The translations under genes were made by a program, and so were the position numbers. DNA of 64,000 nucleotides, taken from assembly GCA_023389315.1 (NCBI GenBank), contig JAEWEQ010000061.1, forward strand, positions 3,811 through 67,810. Direction: 5' to 3'. This document shows, in pieces, positions 11,023 to 48,078 of the stretch. The DNA comes from Actinomycetes bacterium (GTDB taxonomy: Bacteria > Actinomycetota > Actinomycetes > Actinomycetales > Actinomycetaceae). The notes under the pieces were generated by a model. It had not been told where the DNA came from. It saw only the letters and a program-made list of their open reading frames with translations, and searched no databases. The stretch's first letter is position 1. Every line of letters begins with the position of its first letter.

Positions 11023-11164
11023 GATGTGCCTTTCTATGGATGCCAAAGCTACCGCGTTGCAGTCACTGGCATTGCGGGTTTTAAAGCGCGGTGCGGGTGG
11101 TGAGGGTAGGCCAGGTGGTGGCGCTACCGGCACGTACGGTGCACCGTATGGGGATTAGATGGTG

Positions 11165-11237
11165 TGCCCCCGAGACGATTCGAACGTCCGACACCCGCTT
11201 TAGGAGAGCGGTGCTCTATCCCCTGAGCTACGAGGGC
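11165..11237 (-). tRNA. tRNA-Arg (anticodon CCT)
   Basis: Hand-folded 73-nt cloverleaf. Acceptor stem GCCCUCG/CGGGGGC, D stem GCUC/GAGC, anticodon stem CCGCU/AGCGG with loop CUCCUAA, T stem GGACG/CGUCU with loop UUCGAAU, discriminator A. CCA is not encoded. Confidence 0.95.
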
Positions 11238-11416: not shown

Positions 11417-12340
11417 TCAGCGTCGTTCCCAACCCACCAGGGCTTCGGGTTCTTGCTGGCGGCGGGAGGGGACTACCATCACCGGGCAGGTGGAGTGCGA
11501 CAGAACGGTCTGCGAGGTCGAGCCCAGCAGCAGCCCCTGGAAACCACCGCGCCCCCGGTTACCCACTACCACCAGGTCCACCGCGGTGGAGAACTCCGTC
11601 AGCAGCGCCGCCGGCGAACCGTCCAGAACGTGGCGGGCAACTTTGACGTTGCGCTCCCCCACGGCTTCGTTGACGGCCGCATTCAAGCCTTCCAGCGTGT
11701 CCTTGGTGACGGCCTGGCGATCCACCGCTGCCGGCAACCAGGCCAGCATGCCGGTGCCCGAAGCAATCGGCACGGCTGAGACGGCGGTGAGCTCGGCTTC
11801 CCAAAGTTCAGCTTCGTAAACGGCCGCGCGCAGCGCCGCGGAAGCAATCTCGGAGCCATCCACACCCACCACGATGCGTTCAATCGGCGTGAAGGGAGAT
11901 CCGGAGGTGTGGCGCGGAACTACCACTACCGGGCACTTGGCGTGCGCGGGCAGAGCGGAGGAAACGGTCCCCAGCAGGCGGTCGGCAAAACCACCGCCGC
12001 CGCGCGATCCCACCACGATGAGGTCCACTTCTTCGGACATTTGCACCATCACGCCGGCGGCATCGCCGGGTTCAGTGGAGCCCGTTACTTTTACGTCTTG
12101 AGCTTTGACGCGCGCCACCGCTTCGTCCACTGCACCTTGTGCGCCTTGCTGCAGGGCTTCATCGTCGAGGACGGCGTATCCACCGTCGAGGGCGGCAGCG
12201 CTGTAGGAGGCGAGCGCATAGGTACACAGGATATGGACGCTACCGTGGTTGCGCTTGGCGTGCGCGGCGGCCCAATCTACTGCGTTTAGTGATTCTTCTG
12301 ATCCGTCTACACCCACGAGTATGACTTGTTGAGTTGTCAT
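11417..12340 (-). CDS. universal stress protein, tandem Usp domains
   Basis: Two Usp repeats: ILVGVDGSEESLNAVDWAA...VVGSRGGGGF and IVVGVDGSEIASAALRAA...VVGNRGRGGFQGLLLGSTS. ATG preceded by GGAGGA. Confidence 0.9.
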   Translation of the reverse strand: MTTQQVILVGVDGSEESLNAVDWAAAHAKRNHGSVHILCTYALASYSAAALDGGYAVLDDEALQQGAQGAVDEAVARVKAQDVKVTGSTEPGDAAGVMVQMSEEVDLIVVGSRGGGGFADRLLGTVSSALPAHAKCPVVVVPRHTSGSPFTPIERIVVGVDGSEIASAALRAAVYEAELWEAELTAVSAVPIASGTGMLAWLPAAVDRQAVTKDTLEGLNAAVNEAVGERNVKVARHVLDGSPAALLTEFSTAVDLVVVGNRGRGGFQGLLLGSTSQTVLSHSTCPVMVVPSRRQQEPEALVGWERR

Positions 12341-12427
12341 TTTTTCCTCCTCTACCGGCAGGTACTTCTATTCTGCCTGGGAAGCACTCGCAGCGTGGTT
12401 GAACGGCCGTCGAATTGCAAAATTAGC

Positions 12428-12471
12428 TTAGCGGCGGGGTAAAGACACTTAGGTCTTTACCCCGCCGCTAA
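12428..12471 (-). terminator. hairpin terminator after NlpC/P60 gene
   Basis: Perfect 19-bp stem: TTAGCGGCGGGGTAAAGAC (12428-12446) and its complement (12453-12471). On the minus strand it is followed by GCTAATTTTG. Confidence 0.7.
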
Positions 12472-12514
12472 AATGCTTTCGATCAGCGCCTAGAGTGGGC
12501 GCTTGAGGCGTGGT

Positions 12515-13249
12515 TTAGTAGCGCACGAAGTGGTAGTCGGAGCCGAAGATCGGAGCCTGCTCCACGGTGCGTCCGGGCTGCGGGGCGTGGATCATCTGGC
12601 CGTTGCCGACGTAGATGCCCACGTGACCGTAGGGGTACCACACGATGTCGCCCGGCTGCGCTTCTGCCGCCGATACGATGGTGCCGCCGCGGCCGATGTC
12701 ACCAGCGGTACGCGGCAGGGAGTATCCAGCTTGGCCGTATACGTACTGCACCAGGCCGGAGCAGTCGAAGCCAGCGGGAGAGGAGCCGCCCCAAACGTAG
12801 GGAACACCAATGTATTGGGCGGCGATGCCCACTACCCCACCAGCGGTGGCGGCGGGAGCGGGCTCAAAGCGTTGGAAACCACGCTCGGCGGCGCTATCGC
12901 GGTCTTCCAGGATAGTTTCCTCAACAGCCGGTGCAGCTTCAGCTTCTACCGCGAGTTCGTCGGCAGCAGCCCAAGCCACGTCGGTGGGAGCGGTGATAGC
13001 CGGGTTAACGGCGGGCTTTACCGTGCTCGGTTGGCTGAGGTTAGAGCTGGTGAGGGATTTGGCCGTAACGTCAATGGAAGCTTCCCCAGCTGCCTGAGCC
13101 ATGCCGGCGCCCAGGACGCTCAGAGCTAAACCGGTAACCGAAACGGCAGCAACGCCGGTGGCGGGTTTAATGTTTCCAGTTAATTCAGTTAGGGGGGTGC
13201 TCGGCCTACAAGCGCGGCGGTGACGCGCCTGGTACTTGGACTTGGTCAC
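12515..13249 (-). CDS. secreted NlpC/P60 (C40) peptidoglycan endopeptidase
   Basis: ORF trimmed to the GTG at 13247-13249, 7 nt downstream of AAGGAG. A signal-like segment (AAVSVTGLALSVLGAGMAQAAGEA) is present. The catalytic domain reads GVPYVWGGSSPAGFDCSGLVQYVY...GHVGIYVGNGQMIHAP. Confidence 0.9.
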   Translation of the reverse strand: MTKSKYQARHRRACRPSTPLTELTGNIKPATGVAAVSVTGLALSVLGAGMAQAAGEASIDVTAKSLTSSNLSQPSTVKPAVNPAITAPTDVAWAAADELAVEAEAAPAVEETILEDRDSAAERGFQRFEPAPAATAGGVVGIAAQYIGVPYVWGGSSPAGFDCSGLVQYVYGQAGYSLPRTAGDIGRGGTIVSAAEAQPGDIVWYPYGHVGIYVGNGQMIHAPQPGRTVEQAPIFGSDYHFVRY

Positions 13250-13261
13250 TTCTTCTCCTTG

Positions 13262-13440
13262 GTGCAAGCCTACGAGGTGAGCTGTCGGGTTAGAGCTGGA
13301 GACGCTCTGCCGCTTTCGCGGCTACACCCCAAGGGATTGCTCCCAACCTTGGGTCCCCCGCACCCCACCCACAGTTGTTTTCACGGCAGATCCAGTGGGG
13401 ATGGGGTCTCGGCTTCACCGGATCGGTTGAGCCTCGACGA
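13262..13440 (-). promoter_or_regulatory. ydaO/yuaA-type cyclic-di-AMP riboswitch (5' leader of NlpC/P60 gene)
   Basis: The minus-strand RNA contains GCGGGGGACCCAAGG, CUUGGGGUGUAGCC and CUAACCCGACAGCUCACCUCGUAGGC. These match the conserved GGGGACCCA, GGGGUGAAUC and CCGACAGCUAACCUCGUAAGC blocks of the ydaO motif. The leader ends just before the SD AAGGAG. The 5' boundary is approximate. Confidence 0.75.
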
Positions 13441-18789: not shown

Positions 18790-20340
18790 CTAGATTTCCG
18801 GCAGCATCCCGGCGTTGGCGGGATCCACCCACTGGAAGTCGAGGCCGTCTAAGCGGAAGCGTGCATCCACGTAGGCCAGTGTCATCAAGCTGCCTTGGAA
18901 GGTCGTGGAGATAACCGTGATCAAGGCGATCAAAACGGGGAAGATGAGCAGTACCAGCACCACTCCCGGCTCTGAATGTGAGGTCGCGGCGAGCATTAGG
19001 GTTCCTATGGTGACGATGATGGCCGTGATTACGAACGCGATCCCCACTACCATCCCGATGATGAACAGGGCTCCCAGTGCGCGCCAGAAGTTCTGCTTCA
19101 GTAGCTCCACGGCGCGCTTAACGCAGTCGATGGTGCGGCGGTTTTCCAGTACTGCCACGATGCCGGACATGGCTGCCACCAGGGTCAGCGGAGTAACGAG
19201 GATTGCTGCTACTAGGGAGTAGATGGAAGACCCCAGGTCACCGAGCAGGAATCCTGGAGATTGAATGATCGCATAGAGGAGCGAGAAGAAAGCTCCTAGA
19301 ACGAATAGTCGACCGAAGGAGGCGAAAAACTCGGCAACACAGCGCCGCACCGAGGGGGTTCGACCGGCGGCGGCTGCGACTACTAGGGGTGAGAAGAAGG
19401 CAGGGAGCCACACTGCCGCAAAACCTTGTACTGCGTAGGGCAAGATCTCGGTAAACACCGGGAAACTATCCAGCGAGGGCGGTTCATCGAGGCCACCACT
19501 GGCCAACGGCATGGCCACGAAGACGCCGATGGCTAGGGCGCCTAGTACGAATGCGGGGATCATTACGGTGCAGGCCGCCAAGAGCAGCTTCATGGGTGCG
19601 TAACGCACCATCGCGAAAGTGCCAGACAGCAGATCACCGAAGCTTAGGGGACGCAGCGGGATGATGCCGGGCTGGGCGTAGGTGTACTGGCCTGAGCGCG
19701 GGTCGAGGCCGGGCAGATAGCCGTTATTTGGGGTCGGGTTGTTCGCGCGCGCCGGGACGGGTTGGCCGTAGGTTGGCTGGCCGTAGTTTTGCTGGCCGTA
19801 GTTTTGCTGGCCGTAGCCGTTGTGCTGGTTCTGCGCGGGCTGTCCGTAGGCGTTGTAATGGTTCTGCGCGGGCTGCCCATACCCTGGATGGGTGTAGCCC
19901 GGCTGGATATATCCCGGCTGCCCAGCCCCGTAAGCACTCGCATCCCCTGCGCCGGCTTCTCCTTGGTAGGGCGTGTCGCTAGGTTTCCAAGCATCGTCGC
20001 TGGCGGGCTGCTGCGGGGCGGAGAACTGCGGGTCGCTGGCGGGCTGCTGCGGGGCAGAGAACTGCGGGTCGCTGGCGGGCTGCTGCAGGCTTGCGAACCC
20101 CTGACCGCTGGCGGACTGTTGCGGGGCGGAGAACTGCGGCTCACTGCTGGGCTGCTGCGGAGCGGAAAACTGCGGCTCACTGCTGGGCTGTTGCGGAGCG
20201 GAGAACTGCGGGTCGCTGCCAGCTTGCTGACCGCCCTCGAGATGCGGTTCGGGCGCGCGGTATTGCTCGGCCGCGGGTTGACAGGCCCCCTCCGACTGCG
20301 GGCGCGGCTGGTCTCCAGATGGAGGCGGTGGCATCGTCAT
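18790..20340 (-). CDS. multipass membrane protein with long Pro/Gln/Tyr-rich repetitive N-terminal tail
   Basis: 516-aa ORF. The first ~200 aa or so (roughly 40% of the protein) is low complexity, with (S/D)PQFSAPQQP(S/A)S x6 followed by Y/G/Q-rich runs. The C-terminal half has about 6 TM helices. The layout resembles the GDPD-membrane/DUF975-type domain, a weak family call. Confidence 0.7.
   Translation of the reverse strand: MTMPPPPSGDQPRPQSEGACQPAAEQYRAPEPHLEGGQQAGSDPQFSAPQQPSSEPQFSAPQQPSSEPQFSAPQQSASGQGFASLQQPASDPQFSAPQQPASDPQFSAPQQPASDDAWKPSDTPYQGEAGAGDASAYGAGQPGYIQPGYTHPGYGQPAQNHYNAYGQPAQNQHNGYGQQNYGQQNYGQPTYGQPVPARANNPTPNNGYLPGLDPRSGQYTYAQPGIIPLRPLSFGDLLSGTFAMVRYAPMKLLLAACTVMIPAFVLGALAIGVFVAMPLASGGLDEPPSLDSFPVFTEILPYAVQGFAAVWLPAFFSPLVVAAAAGRTPSVRRCVAEFFASFGRLFVLGAFFSLLYAIIQSPGFLLGDLGSSIYSLVAAILVTPLTLVAAMSGIVAVLENRRTIDCVKRAVELLKQNFWRALGALFIIGMVVGIAFVITAIIVTIGTLMLAATSHSEPGVVLVLLIFPVLIALITVISTTFQGSLMTLAYVDARFRLDGLDFQWVDPANAGMLPEI
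19996..20247. repeat. in-frame 36-bp tandem repeat, about 7 units (coding)
   Basis: Unit starts GTCGCTGGCGGGCTGCTGCGG... recur at 19996, 20032, 20068, 20104, 20140, 20176 and 20212. Each unit encodes the 12-aa repeat xPQFSAPQQPxS on the minus strand. Confidence 0.85.
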
Positions 20341-20524
20341 CGACGGTTTCTACTTTCTTAAATTGAAAACCTTTTTCACGGTTATACTACGCACAGGATG
20401 CCAAAAACAAGCAAGCATTTTGTCATCTTCCGCTATGCACCCAGCCAATCCGCCGCCAGAACGCGCACGGATGCAGGTGGCCCGCGCGCCACGTCCTCGC
20501 GAAGATGCATGGTCGACGCGAAGA

Positions 20525-20680
20525 GCTTTGTGCACTCGCTTTGTGCACCGACTTGGCGCGTCAACTTTCCACATCACCTTCGCGCACCACCCTTGCGCAC
20601 CACCTTTGCGCGCCACCTTTTCACACCATTTTTCCAAGCCGCCTGTGTGCACAATCCTTGCGCGTCGCCTTTGGCCTCCC
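20525..20680. repeat. degenerate tandem array, 12 units with exact 13-bp period (consensus cCTTTGCGCACCA), non-coding
   Basis: Units read off at 13-nt steps from 20525: gctttgtgcactc, gctttgtgcaccg, acttggcgcgtca, actttccacatca, ccttcgcgcacca, cccttgcgcacca, cctttgcgcgcca, ccttttcacacca, tttttccaagccg, cctgtgtgcacaa, tccttgcgcgtcg, cctttggcctccc. Most columns are conserved in 8-11 of 12 units. Confidence 0.8.
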
Positions 20681-20697
20681 CTACCCCCCGTGGGTAT

Positions 20698-20730
20698 AAA
20701 CCTTGTACGGTTCCGCACCGTACAAGGTTT
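20698..20730. other. perfect 13-bp-stem hairpin (possible RNA 3' end or protein-binding palindrome)
   Basis: Arms AAACCTTGTACGG (20698-20710) and CCGTACAAGGTTT (20718-20730) with loop TTCCGCA. There is no U-tract on either side. Confidence 0.5.
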
Positions 20731-21033
20731 ACAAGGGCACCTCACTACCTGGAGCTGAACGCGAGCGGAAACGATTCAAGAGGAAGTGACCCAAGAGGAA
20801 GCGACACAGACGGCAGGCCGCGCCCACAGGCACGGCGCCAGGCAGCAAATACGCAGGCCACAGGGAGACGAAAACGCCGGGGCGGCGGGGCCGCAAAGGT
20901 GCGGCGGCCAAAATGCAGAACGTGTGACGCGGGGCCTCGCGCAGGGTATTGAACTGCGCGGGCAGCAGGGCTACCATTTCAAACAACAGAAGTAAGGCAA
21001 ACCTAAGTAGATTGATAGTTTAGAAAGCTCGAC

Positions 21034-22356
21034 ATGGACACCACCCTGCCTCCGGATGCCAATACCGAGATCCCACCGCTTGCCGAGGGTGACAGCCCGC
21101 TGCCGGGAACCGGCCAAGGCAAGAAAAAGGCCGACGCCACCTTGCCCGCGAGCGCCCAAGCCCCCTTGTTGTACACAGTGATGATGCTGGCACTGATGGG
21201 CCAGATGCTGCTCAGCCCCCTCATCGCACCGCTTTCACGCGAAATGGGGCTTCGCGAGTGGCATATCGGGCTGACCATCTCCCTGGCGGCCATCATGTTC
21301 GCGCTCACTTCCGGCCCGTGGGGGCGAGCTTCGCAACGCTTCGGGGTGCGCCCTGTTCTGACCGCTGCGATGGGGATGGGGGCGATCGCCCTCGCCGCAT
21401 TTGCCTTGCTCGCCCACTTCGGTATGAAAGGCGTGTGGGTCGGCACCGGCCTGCTGCTGGGCGTGATACTCACCCGCGGCGTTATCTACGGGGGCGCGAT
21501 CGCGGCCCTGAACCCCACGGTACAAACCCACCTGGTGACCCACACCGTGACGGAGGCCCAGCGCCTGAAAGCAGTGGGCGGCATGGGTGCGGTAACCGGC
21601 CTGTCCTCCGTGGTGGGGGCGATGATCGGTGGCGCCTTGGCAGCCATCGGCGGGCTAATGCTGCCTCTGACCGTCATGCCGGTGCTGATGCTGCTGGCGA
21701 TCGGGATGCTGCTGTGGCGTTTCCAGCACAGCAAACCGCTGGCCGAGATGGAAAAACCCGCGAAACTGTCCTACTTTGACCCGCGCGTATTCCCCTTCCT
21801 AGTGGTCGGCCTGGCCCTGTTTACCGCCTTCGCTGCGCTGGGGACGCTGTTTGGATTCATCGTGCAGGACCGCTTCGGTATGAGCGCGACTGCGGCCGCG
21901 TCGTTCACCGCCCTCTACATGGTGGTGCTGTCAATCTTCCTGATCCTGGCACAAGCGGTGGCAGCGCCGAAACTGGGCTGGTCGTCAGTGGTGCTGATGC
22001 GCCGCGGAGTGCTATTCGCCCTGGCCGGTACGGTGCTGCTGCTGTTCGCCTCTAGCCACTGGACCTTAACGTTGGCGACCATCCTGTTTGGCTTCGGCGC
22101 GGGCCTGATAATGCCCGGATACAACGCGGGACCCACGATCCACATGTCCGCCCGCGAACAAGGCAGCCTGGCGGGCCTAATTCACGCCAATAACGGGATG
22201 GCCTACGCCATCGCACCGGTCACTTTCACCGCCCTCTACGGGTGGGATCCGCGCTACCCGCTAGCGGTGGCGGCGCTGCTCTTGGCGGCGGCAATGCTGT
22301 TTGGCTACCTGCATCCGAAGTTGCGCGAACTGGCGGCGGTGAACCGCGCGAATTAA
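21034..22356 (+). CDS. MFS transporter
   Basis: 440-aa ORF with about 12 hydrophobic helices. A loop motif GPWGRASQRFGVRPVL follows TM2, which is the MFS signature position. Confidence 0.85.
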   Translation: MDTTLPPDANTEIPPLAEGDSPLPGTGQGKKKADATLPASAQAPLLYTVMMLALMGQMLLSPLIAPLSREMGLREWHIGLTISLAAIMFALTSGPWGRASQRFGVRPVLTAAMGMGAIALAAFALLAHFGMKGVWVGTGLLLGVILTRGVIYGGAIAALNPTVQTHLVTHTVTEAQRLKAVGGMGAVTGLSSVVGAMIGGALAAIGGLMLPLTVMPVLMLLAIGMLLWRFQHSKPLAEMEKPAKLSYFDPRVFPFLVVGLALFTAFAALGTLFGFIVQDRFGMSATAAASFTALYMVVLSIFLILAQAVAAPKLGWSSVVLMRRGVLFALAGTVLLLFASSHWTLTLATILFGFGAGLIMPGYNAGPTIHMSAREQGSLAGLIHANNGMAYAIAPVTFTALYGWDPRYPLAVAALLLAAAMLFGYLHPKLRELAAVNRAN

Positions 22357-47932: not shown

Positions 47933-48078
47933 GGGCGGCGCGCACTGGCGCCGCGAAGCGGCCTCACAGGGCGGCGCGCAGAGGCGGCGCGCAGAGGCGG
48001 CGCGTAGCGCCCTCACAGGGCGACGAGATGCGGGGCGGCACTCATAGGGTCGCCCGCTCCCCTAACACCCAGAAAACG

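What the first reader, a model, noticed from the sequence alone, without database searches (positions are those of the whole stretch)
20525..20680. Twelve-unit degenerate tandem array with a strict 13-bp period in a 690-bp divergent intergenic region
Reading 13 nt at a time from 20525 gives 12 consecutive units with the consensus cCTTTGCGCACCA. Most columns are conserved in 8-11 of 12 units. A 13-bp period is not a multiple of 3, so the array is not a coding repeat. This also explains the three long overlapping ORFs here, which have odd His/Pro/Ala-rich translations. It lies between the divergent starts of the repeat-tail membrane protein (20340, minus strand) and an MFS transporter (21034, plus strand). 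It has no spacers, so it is not CRISPR, and no transposase is nearby. Possible roles include an iteron-like array for a DNA-binding protein, where a 13-bp phasing would spiral sites around the helix. It could also be a structured repeat RNA or a hypervariable minisatellite modulating the two promoters.
Basis: seen in the sequence. Interest (0 to 1): 0.65.

Follow-up and report, generated by a model that had tools for sequence, protein, structure and literature searches.

The report
Young 13-bp minisatellite between divergent genes
The 13-bp repeat array is real and non-coding, but it is a young, species-specific minisatellite that gains, loses and swaps units between strains and is missing from the nearest related species, so it is most likely an ordinary product of replication slippage rather than a regulatory device.

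Summary
Positions 20525-20680 read as 12 units of 13 bp (consensus CCTTTGCGCACCA). Lag-13 autocorrelation is 0.615, against a best-lag maximum of 0.47 in 2000 shuffles. The array sits in a 693-bp spacer between a membrane-protein gene (minus strand) and an MFS transporter gene (plus strand). The organism is an uncultured Actinomycetaceae-like bacterium, found mostly in chicken-gut metagenomes.

The array is not coding and matches no Rfam family. On its own it folds about as well as shuffled sequence.

Comparative data decide the case:
- A sister taxon has the same divergent gene pair but only a 286-bp spacer. It keeps both promoter-proximal blocks and has no array.
- Of 17 conspecific sequences, 15 carry 12 units and two carry 11, each through a different clean 13-bp loss.
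- Two core haplotypes differ at 11-17% of sites, against 2-3% in the flanks. This is best read as whole-unit gain and loss.
- Point polymorphisms fall in well-conserved motif columns as well as weak ones.

Best explanation: a lineage-specific minisatellite (VNTR) made and remodelled by slipped-strand mispairing or unequal exchange, with no sequence-specific function. The iteron, operator and structured-RNA readings found no support. Transcription and protein binding could not be tested. Interest is low.

The parts
20525..20680 (.). Twelve-unit, 13-bp-period degenerate tandem array, consensus CCTTTGCGCACCA. It is pyrimidine-rich on the plus strand (C 63, T 43, G 29, A 21).
   Evidence: Unit table and autocorrelation. 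The repeat finder families are spaced 13 bp apart. GC skew is about -0.4.
20577..20628 (.). Homogeneous core (units 4-7), where the unit losses and haplotype differences concentrate.
   Evidence: Tandem Repeats Finder reports period 13, 3.9 copies, 84% matches. L002 lacks unit 5. X13 lacks 13 nt at 20613. The variant haplotype differs at 9-13 sites within 20574-20631.
20458..20671 (.). Approximate extent of DNA left of the anchor that the sister taxon L024 lacks. It comprises a 67-bp non-periodic stretch plus the array.
   Evidence: Alignment of the window spacer with the L024 spacer. The boundaries are approximate and inferred from short anchors at 20446-20457 and 20672-20691.
20672..20691 (.). 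Short block shared with the sister taxon (17 of 20 identical). It overlaps the last array unit and marks the ancestral right edge.
   Evidence: alignment: ACGGGGGGTAGGGGAGGCCA in the window against ACGTGGGGTAGGGCAGGGCA in L024.
20697..20731 (.). Perfect 15-bp inverted repeat with a 5-nt gap, immediately right of the array. It is adjacent to the array, not part of it, and is absent from L024.
   Evidence: the repeat finder pair I1. Single-base polymorphisms break the pairing in X3 (20703) and X4 (20723). It is not aligned in L024.
20341..20440 (-). Promoter-proximal block of the membrane-protein gene, conserved in the sister taxon. It includes a -10-like TAGTAT (ATACTA on the plus strand, about 20384-20389).
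   Evidence: alignment, columns about 600-697. The -10 assignment is by eye.
20940..21033 (+). Promoter-proximal block of the MFS gene, conserved in the sister taxon. The candidate promoter is TTGAAC-17 nt-TACCAT at 20949-20977; L024 has TTGAAC-17 nt-TAAGAT.
   Evidence: alignment, columns 1-100. The promoter assignment is by eye. The consensus scan found none at its stricter threshold.
18790..20340 (-). Flanking gene for a membrane protein with a repetitive N-terminal tail.
   Evidence: ORF list. Weak match to GPDPase_memb. Homologues in conspecific strains are 418-497 aa long, against 516 aa in the window.
21034..22356 (+). Flanking gene for an MFS transporter.
   Evidence: Pfam MFS_1, E = 4.4e-31. 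Homologues listed.

Best explanation
The array is a lineage-specific minisatellite (a VNTR-type tandem repeat).

Origin (inferred): a 13-bp unit in the dispensable middle of a divergent promoter spacer was multiplied in place by slipped-strand mispairing or unequal exchange. This probably went through a 52-bp, four-unit higher-order block.

Current state (shown by strain comparison):
- The outer units are decaying by point mutation.
- The four or five nearly identical central units still gain, lose and exchange whole units between strains.

Function (inferred): the array has no sequence-specific function. Its only likely effect is to lengthen the spacer between two promoters, which work without it in the sister taxon.
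For: 1. Absent from the sister taxon. L024 has the same divergent MFS and membrane-protein gene pair. Its MFS N-terminus is 85% identical in amino acids and its membrane domain 67% identical. Its spacer is only 286 bp. It keeps both promoter-proximal blocks but has no array and no tandem repeat.
2. Unit number varies by clean 13-bp steps. L002 lacks exactly unit 5. X13 lacks 13 nt at 20613. The other 15 conspecific sequences have 12 units.
3. The core evolves faster than the flanks. Window against L025 shows 11.5% difference in the 78-bp core, against 2.2% and 2.8% in the left and right flanks. The X9 minor haplotype has 13 differences within 20574-20631, and X7, X10 and X12 share a closely similar variant with 9 differences there. 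One unit carries 4-5 changes at once, which fits unit replacement rather than independent point mutations.
4. Point polymorphisms fall in well-conserved columns as well as weak ones. Sites include 20533, 20545, 20582, 20610 and 20611, in columns 6, 8 and 9. The motif is therefore not visibly protected.
5. Structure typical of a satellite. There is a homogeneous centre with degenerate edges, and the lag-52 autocorrelation (0.654) exceeds the lag-13 value (0.615).
6. The neighbourhood is repeat-prone. The adjacent gene has a 36-bp coding repeat of 6.2 copies. One strain has a 141-bp deletion in that repeat region, and homologue lengths run from 418 to 497 aa in conspecific strains, against 516 aa in the window.
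7. No support for a function. There is no Rfam match and no excess RNA folding of the array alone. The motif is not arrayed anywhere else in the window or in loci from relatives. A two-unit pattern scan of metagenome and viral collections found no homologous array.
Against: - Fifteen of 17 sequences keep exactly 12 units. The variant haplotype also appears to have compensated a gain with a loss. This could hint at selection on length, or it could reflect low slippage rates and shared ancestry.
- Each unit carries a palindromic hexamer (TGCGCA or GTGCAC), as a dimeric DNA-binding protein would like.
- The 52-bp super-period is close to five helical turns.
- Transcription and protein binding were not testable. 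The only RNA run is too sparse to say anything.
- Only one outgroup locus was available.
Confidence: 0.7

Rival explanations
1. The array is an operator or nucleoprotein platform. On this reading, twelve palindrome-cored sites spaced 13 bp apart are bound cooperatively by an unidentified dimeric DNA-binding protein. The complex would regulate or insulate the two divergent promoters, in the way iteron or ParR/omega-type repeat arrays work.
For: - Each unit contains TGCGCA or GTGCAC, and columns 2-5 and 9 are the most informative.
- The phase is strict over 156 bp.
- The 52-bp super-period is about five helical turns.
- The array lies between divergent genes.
- Unit number is 12 in most strains.
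Against: - The sister taxon runs the same gene pair without the array.
- Polymorphisms fall in well-conserved columns, and whole units are swapped.
- No regulator, replication or partition gene is adjacent.
- The motif does not recur as an array elsewhere in the window or in relatives.
- A 13-bp spacing is out of helical phase for known direct-repeat binders, which use about 10-11 or 20-22 bp (established knowledge).
Confidence: 0.12
2. The array is a contingency-type repeat. On this reading, changes in unit number alter the distance or topology between the two promoters and so tune expression of the membrane protein or the MFS transporter between strains.
For: - Alleles with 11 and 12 units exist.
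- The location is between divergent genes.
Against: - The array is not between a -35 and a -10 element, nor between a promoter and its gene. The conserved promoter blocks lie 85 bp and 260 bp outside the array, and the candidate -10 and -35 elements within them are about 136 and 269 bp away (by eye).
- The units are too degenerate for frequent slippage, and most strains share one length.
Confidence: 0.07
3. The array is transcribed and acts as RNA. On this reading, a C-rich, G-poor repeat on the plus strand is part of a small RNA or a long MFS leader. It could be a Rho-loading (rut-like) tract with pyrimidine-C dimers every 13 nt, or a sponge with an anti-Shine-Dalgarno-like motif (CACCACCUUU).
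For: - The plus strand of the array is C-rich and G-poor, with GC skew about -0.4.
- A perfect 15-bp hairpin follows the array directly.
- The 226-nt stretch that includes this hairpin folds with z = -6.9.
- The unit junction resembles the 3' end of 16S rRNA (by eye).
Against: - The fold signal comes from the hairpin. The array alone gives z = -2.2 and -0.95.
- There is no Rfam match.
- No promoter-like site was found upstream on the plus strand.
- The hairpin has only a 3-T tail, and its pairing is broken by polymorphisms in two strains.
- The element is absent from the sister taxon.
- There are no RNA data.
Confidence: 0.06

Closest known systems
Bacterial intergenic VNTR or minisatellite loci (for example the MIRU and ETR loci of Mycobacterium used for MLVA typing)
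   Same: - Head-to-tail non-coding repeats in an intergenic spacer.
- Whole-unit copy-number differences between strains.
- A homogeneous centre with degenerate edges.
- No array (or an unexpanded site) in the related species.
- Generation by slippage or unequal exchange.
   Different: - The unit is short (13 bp, against about 50-100 bp for MIRU) and rather degenerate.
- Variation in number is modest, at 11 or 12 units.
- It is a single locus rather than a dispersed family in the 64 kb examined.
Plasmid or phage iterons and centromere-like repeat arrays (Rep-binding iterons, R1 parC/ParR 11-bp repeats, omega-protein 7-bp heptads)
   Same: An uninterrupted array of short direct repeats with a strict phase, located upstream of promoters.
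   Different: - No rep or par gene lies nearby.
- The period is 13 bp.
- The motif is not conserved between strains.
- The array is chromosomal and species-specific, and it is dispensable in the sister taxon.
Phase-variable promoter repeats of contingency loci (Neisseria, Haemophilus, Mycoplasma)
   Same: A tandem repeat in a promoter region whose unit number differs between strains.
   Different: - Contingency repeats are perfect short units placed within the core promoter or the 5' coding region.
- Here the units are degenerate.
- The array lies well outside both conserved promoter blocks.

Membership tests
Bacterial VNTR / minisatellite | Head-to-tail copies with a constant period, more than chance would give | tested here: met
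   Twelve units in strict 13-bp register. Lag-13 autocorrelation is 0.615, against a shuffle maximum of 0.47.
Bacterial VNTR / minisatellite | Unit number differs between strains by whole units | tested here: met
   L002 lacks unit 5. X13 lacks 13 nt at 20613. The other 15 sequences have 12 units.
Bacterial VNTR / minisatellite | Array evolves by unit turnover, with the core more variable than the flanks | tested here: met
   The core differs by 11.5% against 2.2-2.8% in the flanks. The variant haplotype has 9-13 clustered differences.
Bacterial VNTR / minisatellite | Array absent or unexpanded at the orthologous site of a related species | tested here: met
   L024 has the same gene pair, a 286-bp spacer and no repeat. 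Only one outgroup was available.
Iterons (replication origin) | Adjacent gene for a Rep initiator that binds the repeats | tested here: not met
   The neighbours are a xanthine/uracil permease, a membrane protein, an MFS transporter, a DUF3027 protein and a cold-shock-domain protein.
Iterons (replication origin) | Repeat sequence conserved among relatives that carry the element | tested here: not met
   Units are replaced and mutated between conspecific strains, and the array is absent from the sister taxon.
Iterons (replication origin) | Specific binding by the initiator protein | not testable with these tools
   This needs a binding experiment.
CRISPR array | Repeats of about 24-40 bp separated by unique spacers of similar length, usually with cas genes | tested here: not met
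   The units are 13 bp and abut each other with no spacers. None of the adjacent genes is a cas gene.
Described RNA families (Rfam 15) | Match to a covariance model at or near its gathering score | tested here: not met
   There is no hit in the spacer at gathering threshold. Only two chance-level hits appear at E up to 10, at E = 1.6 and 4.3.
Phase-variable promoter repeat (contingency locus) | Repeat tract lies within the core promoter or the 5' coding region, so that unit number sets expression | tested here: not met
   The conserved promoter-proximal blocks are 20341-20440 and 20940-21033. The array at 20525-20680 lies between them, 85 bp from one and 260 bp from the other. The promoter elements themselves were assigned by eye.
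OmpR/PhoB-type direct-repeat operators | Direct repeats at about 10-11 bp, one helical turn apart | tested here: not met
   The period is 13 bp with no power at lags 10-11, where autocorrelation is 0.27-0.34.

The most novel reading that the evidence does not exclude
The array is a species-specific nucleoprotein platform. On this reading, twelve palindrome-cored 13-bp sites, organised in three 52-bp (five-turn) super-units, are coated cooperatively by an unidentified dimeric protein that wraps the DNA. The complex insulates or co-regulates the two divergent membrane-protein genes. The preferred number of 12 units would then be kept by selection.
Probability: 0.07. Interest if true: 0.5.

Novelty: new member of a known kind. 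Interest (0 to 1): 0.15.

Why it matters
It matters little biologically. It is one more example of a short-unit intergenic tandem repeat, born and remodelled by slippage in a repeat-prone stretch of genome.

Practical value:
- The locus, together with the neighbouring coding repeat, could serve as a strain-typing marker for this uncultured chicken-gut Actinomycetaceae lineage.
- It is a documented case in which a strikingly regular array is shown, by comparison with a sister taxon and with many strains, not to be under motif-level constraint.
- The four spurious ORFs across it should not be annotated as genes.

Tried and rejected
- Rfam, at gathering threshold over the whole window and at E up to 10 over the spacer: nothing relevant.
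- RNA folding: the array alone is not more stable than shuffles. The apparent signal of the longer stretch comes from the adjacent 15-bp palindrome.
- Sigma-70-type promoter scan of the spacer: zero sites at the tool's threshold.
- Pfam on three of the four ORFs crossing the array (the three of 131-184 aa): no family. Coding was rejected, also because of frame-breaking indels between strains.
- Pattern scan for two adjacent units in metagenome contigs: 18 loci. These are mostly two-unit matches with no further periodicity, or unrelated short arrays of 3-5 units in other high-GC bacteria (L014, L020, L017/L019). None is homologous.
- The same pattern scan in viral contigs: 0 hits.
- Genome-collection search with the MFS protein: one locus at 72% identity in a different gene context, next to a gene I read by eye as TetR-like (not scanned), and with no array. 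The MFS homologues at 70-75% identity also sit in other contexts.
- RNA evidence: the only RNA-labelled run holds a few read-sized contigs scattered over 20 kb and is uninformative. The second RNA query returned one run of unknown type.
- Literature search for 13-bp tandem or direct repeats: nothing relevant.
- A large imperfect hairpin pairing the pyrimidine-rich array with the purine-rich segment to its right: rejected, because the short complementary pairs are not collinear about one centre.
- MITE or foreign insertion: no terminal inverted repeats or second copy were seen. This cannot be excluded without the whole genome.

Full report
**Observation.** The sequence from 20525 to 20680 reads as twelve consecutive 13-nt units with the computed consensus CCTTTGCGCACCA. 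Ten of the 13 columns are conserved in 8-11 of 12 units. Individual units match the consensus at 6 to 12 of 13 positions. The best units are the four central ones (20577-20628).

Positional autocorrelation is 0.615 at lag 13, 0.615 at lag 26, 0.564 at lag 39 and 0.654 at lag 52. It is about 0.2-0.35 at all other lags. In 2000 dinucleotide-preserving shuffles, the best value over lags 4-40 averaged 0.375 (sd 0.021) and never exceeded 0.47. The periodicity is therefore real.

Tandem Repeats Finder sees only the homogeneous core, at period 13 with 3.9 copies and at period 26 with 3.0 copies. This shows how degenerate the outer units are.

**Setting.** The array lies in a 693-bp spacer (20341-21033). 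On one side is the start of a 516-aa membrane protein on the minus strand, with a weak match to GPDPase_memb. On the other is the start of an MFS transporter on the plus strand. Beyond these lie a xanthine/uracil permease gene and a DUF3027 gene.

**Not coding.** Four ORFs of 64-184 aa cross the array. The three of 131-184 aa that were scanned have no Pfam match. Strains differ by 1-nt and 2-nt indels at 20358, 20479, 20686 and 20879, which would break any reading frame.

**Not a described RNA.** There is no Rfam match in the spacer at gathering threshold. Only two chance-level matches appear at E up to 10. The array alone folds with z = -2.2 on the plus strand and -0.95 on the minus strand. 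The stronger z = -6.9 for 20515-20740 comes from a perfect 15-bp inverted repeat at 20697-20731, just right of the array.

**Source organism.** The MFS protein's closest named relatives are Actinomycetaceae. Runs that hold the spacer are mostly chicken-gut metagenomes, with some air, dust, gut and faeces metagenomes and a few runs under coded organism names. The organism is therefore an uncultured or little-studied Actinomycetaceae-like bacterium.

**Comparison with a sister taxon.** Searching with the membrane domain of the left-hand gene found four near-identical proteins (95-99%) and one at 67% identity. The contig carrying the 67% protein (L024) has the same divergent arrangement. Its partial MFS gene is 85% identical in amino acids to the window's.

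The L024 spacer is only 286 bp and contains no tandem repeat. Aligned with the window, two parts are conserved:
- About 95 bp next to the MFS start (window 20940-21033). This includes a candidate promoter, TTGAAC-17 nt-TACCAT in the window and TTGAAC-17 nt-TAAGAT in L024.
- About 100 bp next to the membrane-protein start (20341-20440). This includes a -10-like TAGTAT in the window and TAATAT in L024.

The promoter assignments are by eye. The array, the palindrome and a T-poor purine-rich segment (about 20735-20940) have no counterpart in L024.

One short anchor, 17 of 20 identical, matches window 20672-20691. It overlaps the twelfth unit, so that unit is partly ancestral flank.

The array is therefore a lineage-specific addition to the dispensable middle of the spacer. 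The same two genes and their promoter-proximal sequences exist without it.

**Comparison among strains.** Three assembled contigs (L002, L025, L026) and Logan contigs of 13 runs cover the array core. One run (X9) holds two haplotypes. With the window, that makes 17 conspecific sequences spanning the core.

Fifteen of them have 12 units. Two have 11 units through different, clean 13-bp losses:
- L002 lacks exactly unit 5.
- X13 lacks 13 nt at 20613.

There are two core haplotypes:
- The window type is seen in X1-X4, X8, the X9 major variant, X14, X25 and L026.
- The variant type is seen in X7, X10, X12 and the X9 minor variant, with L025 similar.

The two types differ at 9-13 positions within 20574-20631. 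Against L025, the 78-bp core differs by 11.5%, while the flanks differ by 2.2% and 2.8%. Unit 7 alone changes at four to five positions at once, and toward the consensus.

The pattern is most simply read as one unit gained upstream and unit 7 lost. This is whole-unit turnover rather than many point mutations, and it is an inference.

Isolated point polymorphisms fall in strongly conserved columns (2, 6, 8, 9, 12) as well as weak ones. There is no visible protection of the motif.

**Array architecture.** The unit-by-unit identity matrix shows a four-unit super-period. Units 2, 6 and 10 resemble each other. So do units 3 and 7, and units 1, 5 and 9. Lag 52 gives the highest autocorrelation. A homogeneous centre, decayed edges and a higher-order period are the usual signature of arrays that grow by block duplication and unequal exchange.

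The neighbourhood is repeat-prone in general:
- The adjacent gene carries a 36-bp coding repeat of 6.2 copies.
- One strain has a 141-bp deletion there.
- Homologues in conspecific strains range from 418 to 497 aa, against 516 aa in the window.

**Search for a wider family.**
- The 13-mer with up to two mismatches occurs four times in the array and seven times as scattered single copies elsewhere in the window, five of them inside long ORFs.
- A two-unit degenerate pattern is absent from the loci of the more distant relatives L001, L003, L004, L005 and L024.
- It found nothing in viral contigs.
- In JGI metagenome contigs it found 18 loci. These are mostly two-unit matches with no further periodicity, or short unrelated arrays of 3-5 units in other high-GC bacteria.
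- No homologous array exists in what could be searched.

**Explanation.** The best-supported reading is a young minisatellite (VNTR). It was generated in place by slipped-strand mispairing or unequal exchange, is still turning over in its homogeneous core, and is decaying at its edges. It has no sequence-specific function (confidence about 0.7).

Shown:
- The periodicity.
- Non-coding status.
- Absence from the sister taxon.
- Whole-unit losses.
- Excess core divergence.
- No motif protection.

Inferred:
- The slippage mechanism.
- The gain-plus-loss history of the variant haplotype.
- Neutrality.

**Rivals.**
- *Operator or nucleoprotein platform (0.12).* It draws on the palindromic TGCGCA or GTGCAC core in each unit, the strict phase, the 52-bp (about five-turn) super-period and the predominance of 12 units. 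Against it are the array's dispensability in the sister taxon, its strain-level remodelling, the lack of an adjacent regulator or replication gene, and the out-of-phase 13-bp spacing.
- *Contingency-type modulator of the promoters (0.07).* It is disfavoured because the array lies 85 bp and 260 bp outside the conserved promoter blocks and most strains share one length.
- *RNA role (0.06).* This would be a C-rich rut-like tract or an anti-Shine-Dalgarno-like sponge ending at the hairpin. It rests only on composition (GC skew about -0.4) and the neighbouring hairpin. There is no upstream promoter-like site and no usable RNA data.

**Comparison with known kinds.** The array passes every feature tested for a bacterial VNTR or minisatellite. 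It fails the tested defining features of iterons, CRISPR arrays, Rfam families, OmpR/PhoB-type operators and contingency promoter repeats (see the membership table). It is a new member of a known kind.

**Verdict.** Its interpretation is partly supported: the element is a minisatellite, but it is not hypervariable, and there is no evidence for promoter modulation, iteron function or a structured RNA. Interest is low (0.15). The main practical uses are as a strain-typing marker and as a warning not to annotate the overlapping ORFs.

Noticed in passing
window 19996-20218 (within gene 18790-20340, minus strand): The N-terminal tail of the membrane protein is a 36-bp coding repeat of 6.2 copies that varies between strains. 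One strain has a 141-bp deletion (20154 to 20296). Homologues with 95-99% identical membrane domains are 418-497 aa long, against 516 aa in the window.
   Followed up: partly
window 20697-20731: A perfect 15-bp inverted repeat (TAAACCTTGTACGGT / ACCGTACAAGGTTTA, 5-nt gap) lies directly right of the array, preceded by GGGTATAAAC. It is absent from the sister taxon. Its pairing is broken by single substitutions in two strains (20703 in X3, 20723 in X4). It could be an operator or a weak terminator, but this is unresolved.
   Followed up: partly
window 20750-20900: This segment of the spacer is almost free of T on the plus strand (AT skew up to 0.93). It contains a 15-bp direct repeat of 1.9 copies (20777-20805). 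It is also missing from the sister taxon's spacer.
   Followed up: no
window 20990-21012: A block between the candidate MFS -10 element and the ATG is conserved in the sister taxon (ACTTAGGnTnnCCTTACTT on the minus strand). By eye it resembles a DtxR/IdeR-type operator, at about 14 of 19 positions. A gene with an Fe_dep_repress domain lies about 6 kb away (seen in L025 at 11856-12551). This was not tested.
   Followed up: no
window 21124-21133: Most other strains carry about 48 extra nucleotides here, in the N-terminal tail of the MFS transporter. The closest homologue is 456 aa, against 440 aa in the window.
   Followed up: partly
window 47934-48033: A second non-coding tandem array, with a different sequence, lies just downstream of a short ORF that looks like ribosomal protein L36. 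Tandem Repeats Finder reports period 13 (GGCGGCGCGCAGA, 5.7 copies) and period 23 (3.7 copies).
   Followed up: no
window 13251-13398 (minus strand) and 11164-11237 (minus strand): A c-di-AMP riboswitch (ydaO-type, 64 bits) and a tRNA-Arg(CCT) gene.
   Followed up: no
window 20416 (run X14): A dust-metagenome contig matches the window from 20416 rightward through the array. To the left it continues into 188 nt of unrelated sequence. This suggests a rearrangement or insertion between the membrane-gene promoter and the array in that strain, or a chimeric contig.
   Followed up: no
L014 6200-6285; L020 2100-2158; L017 1580-1660: Short intergenic arrays of 3-5 units with 13-bp periods occur in unrelated high-GC metagenome contigs. 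The units are CCTCGCGCACCAC-like and CTTCGCGCACCAG-like. They resemble the unit here at up to 12 of 13 positions but sit in different contexts, so they are probably independent.
   Followed up: partly
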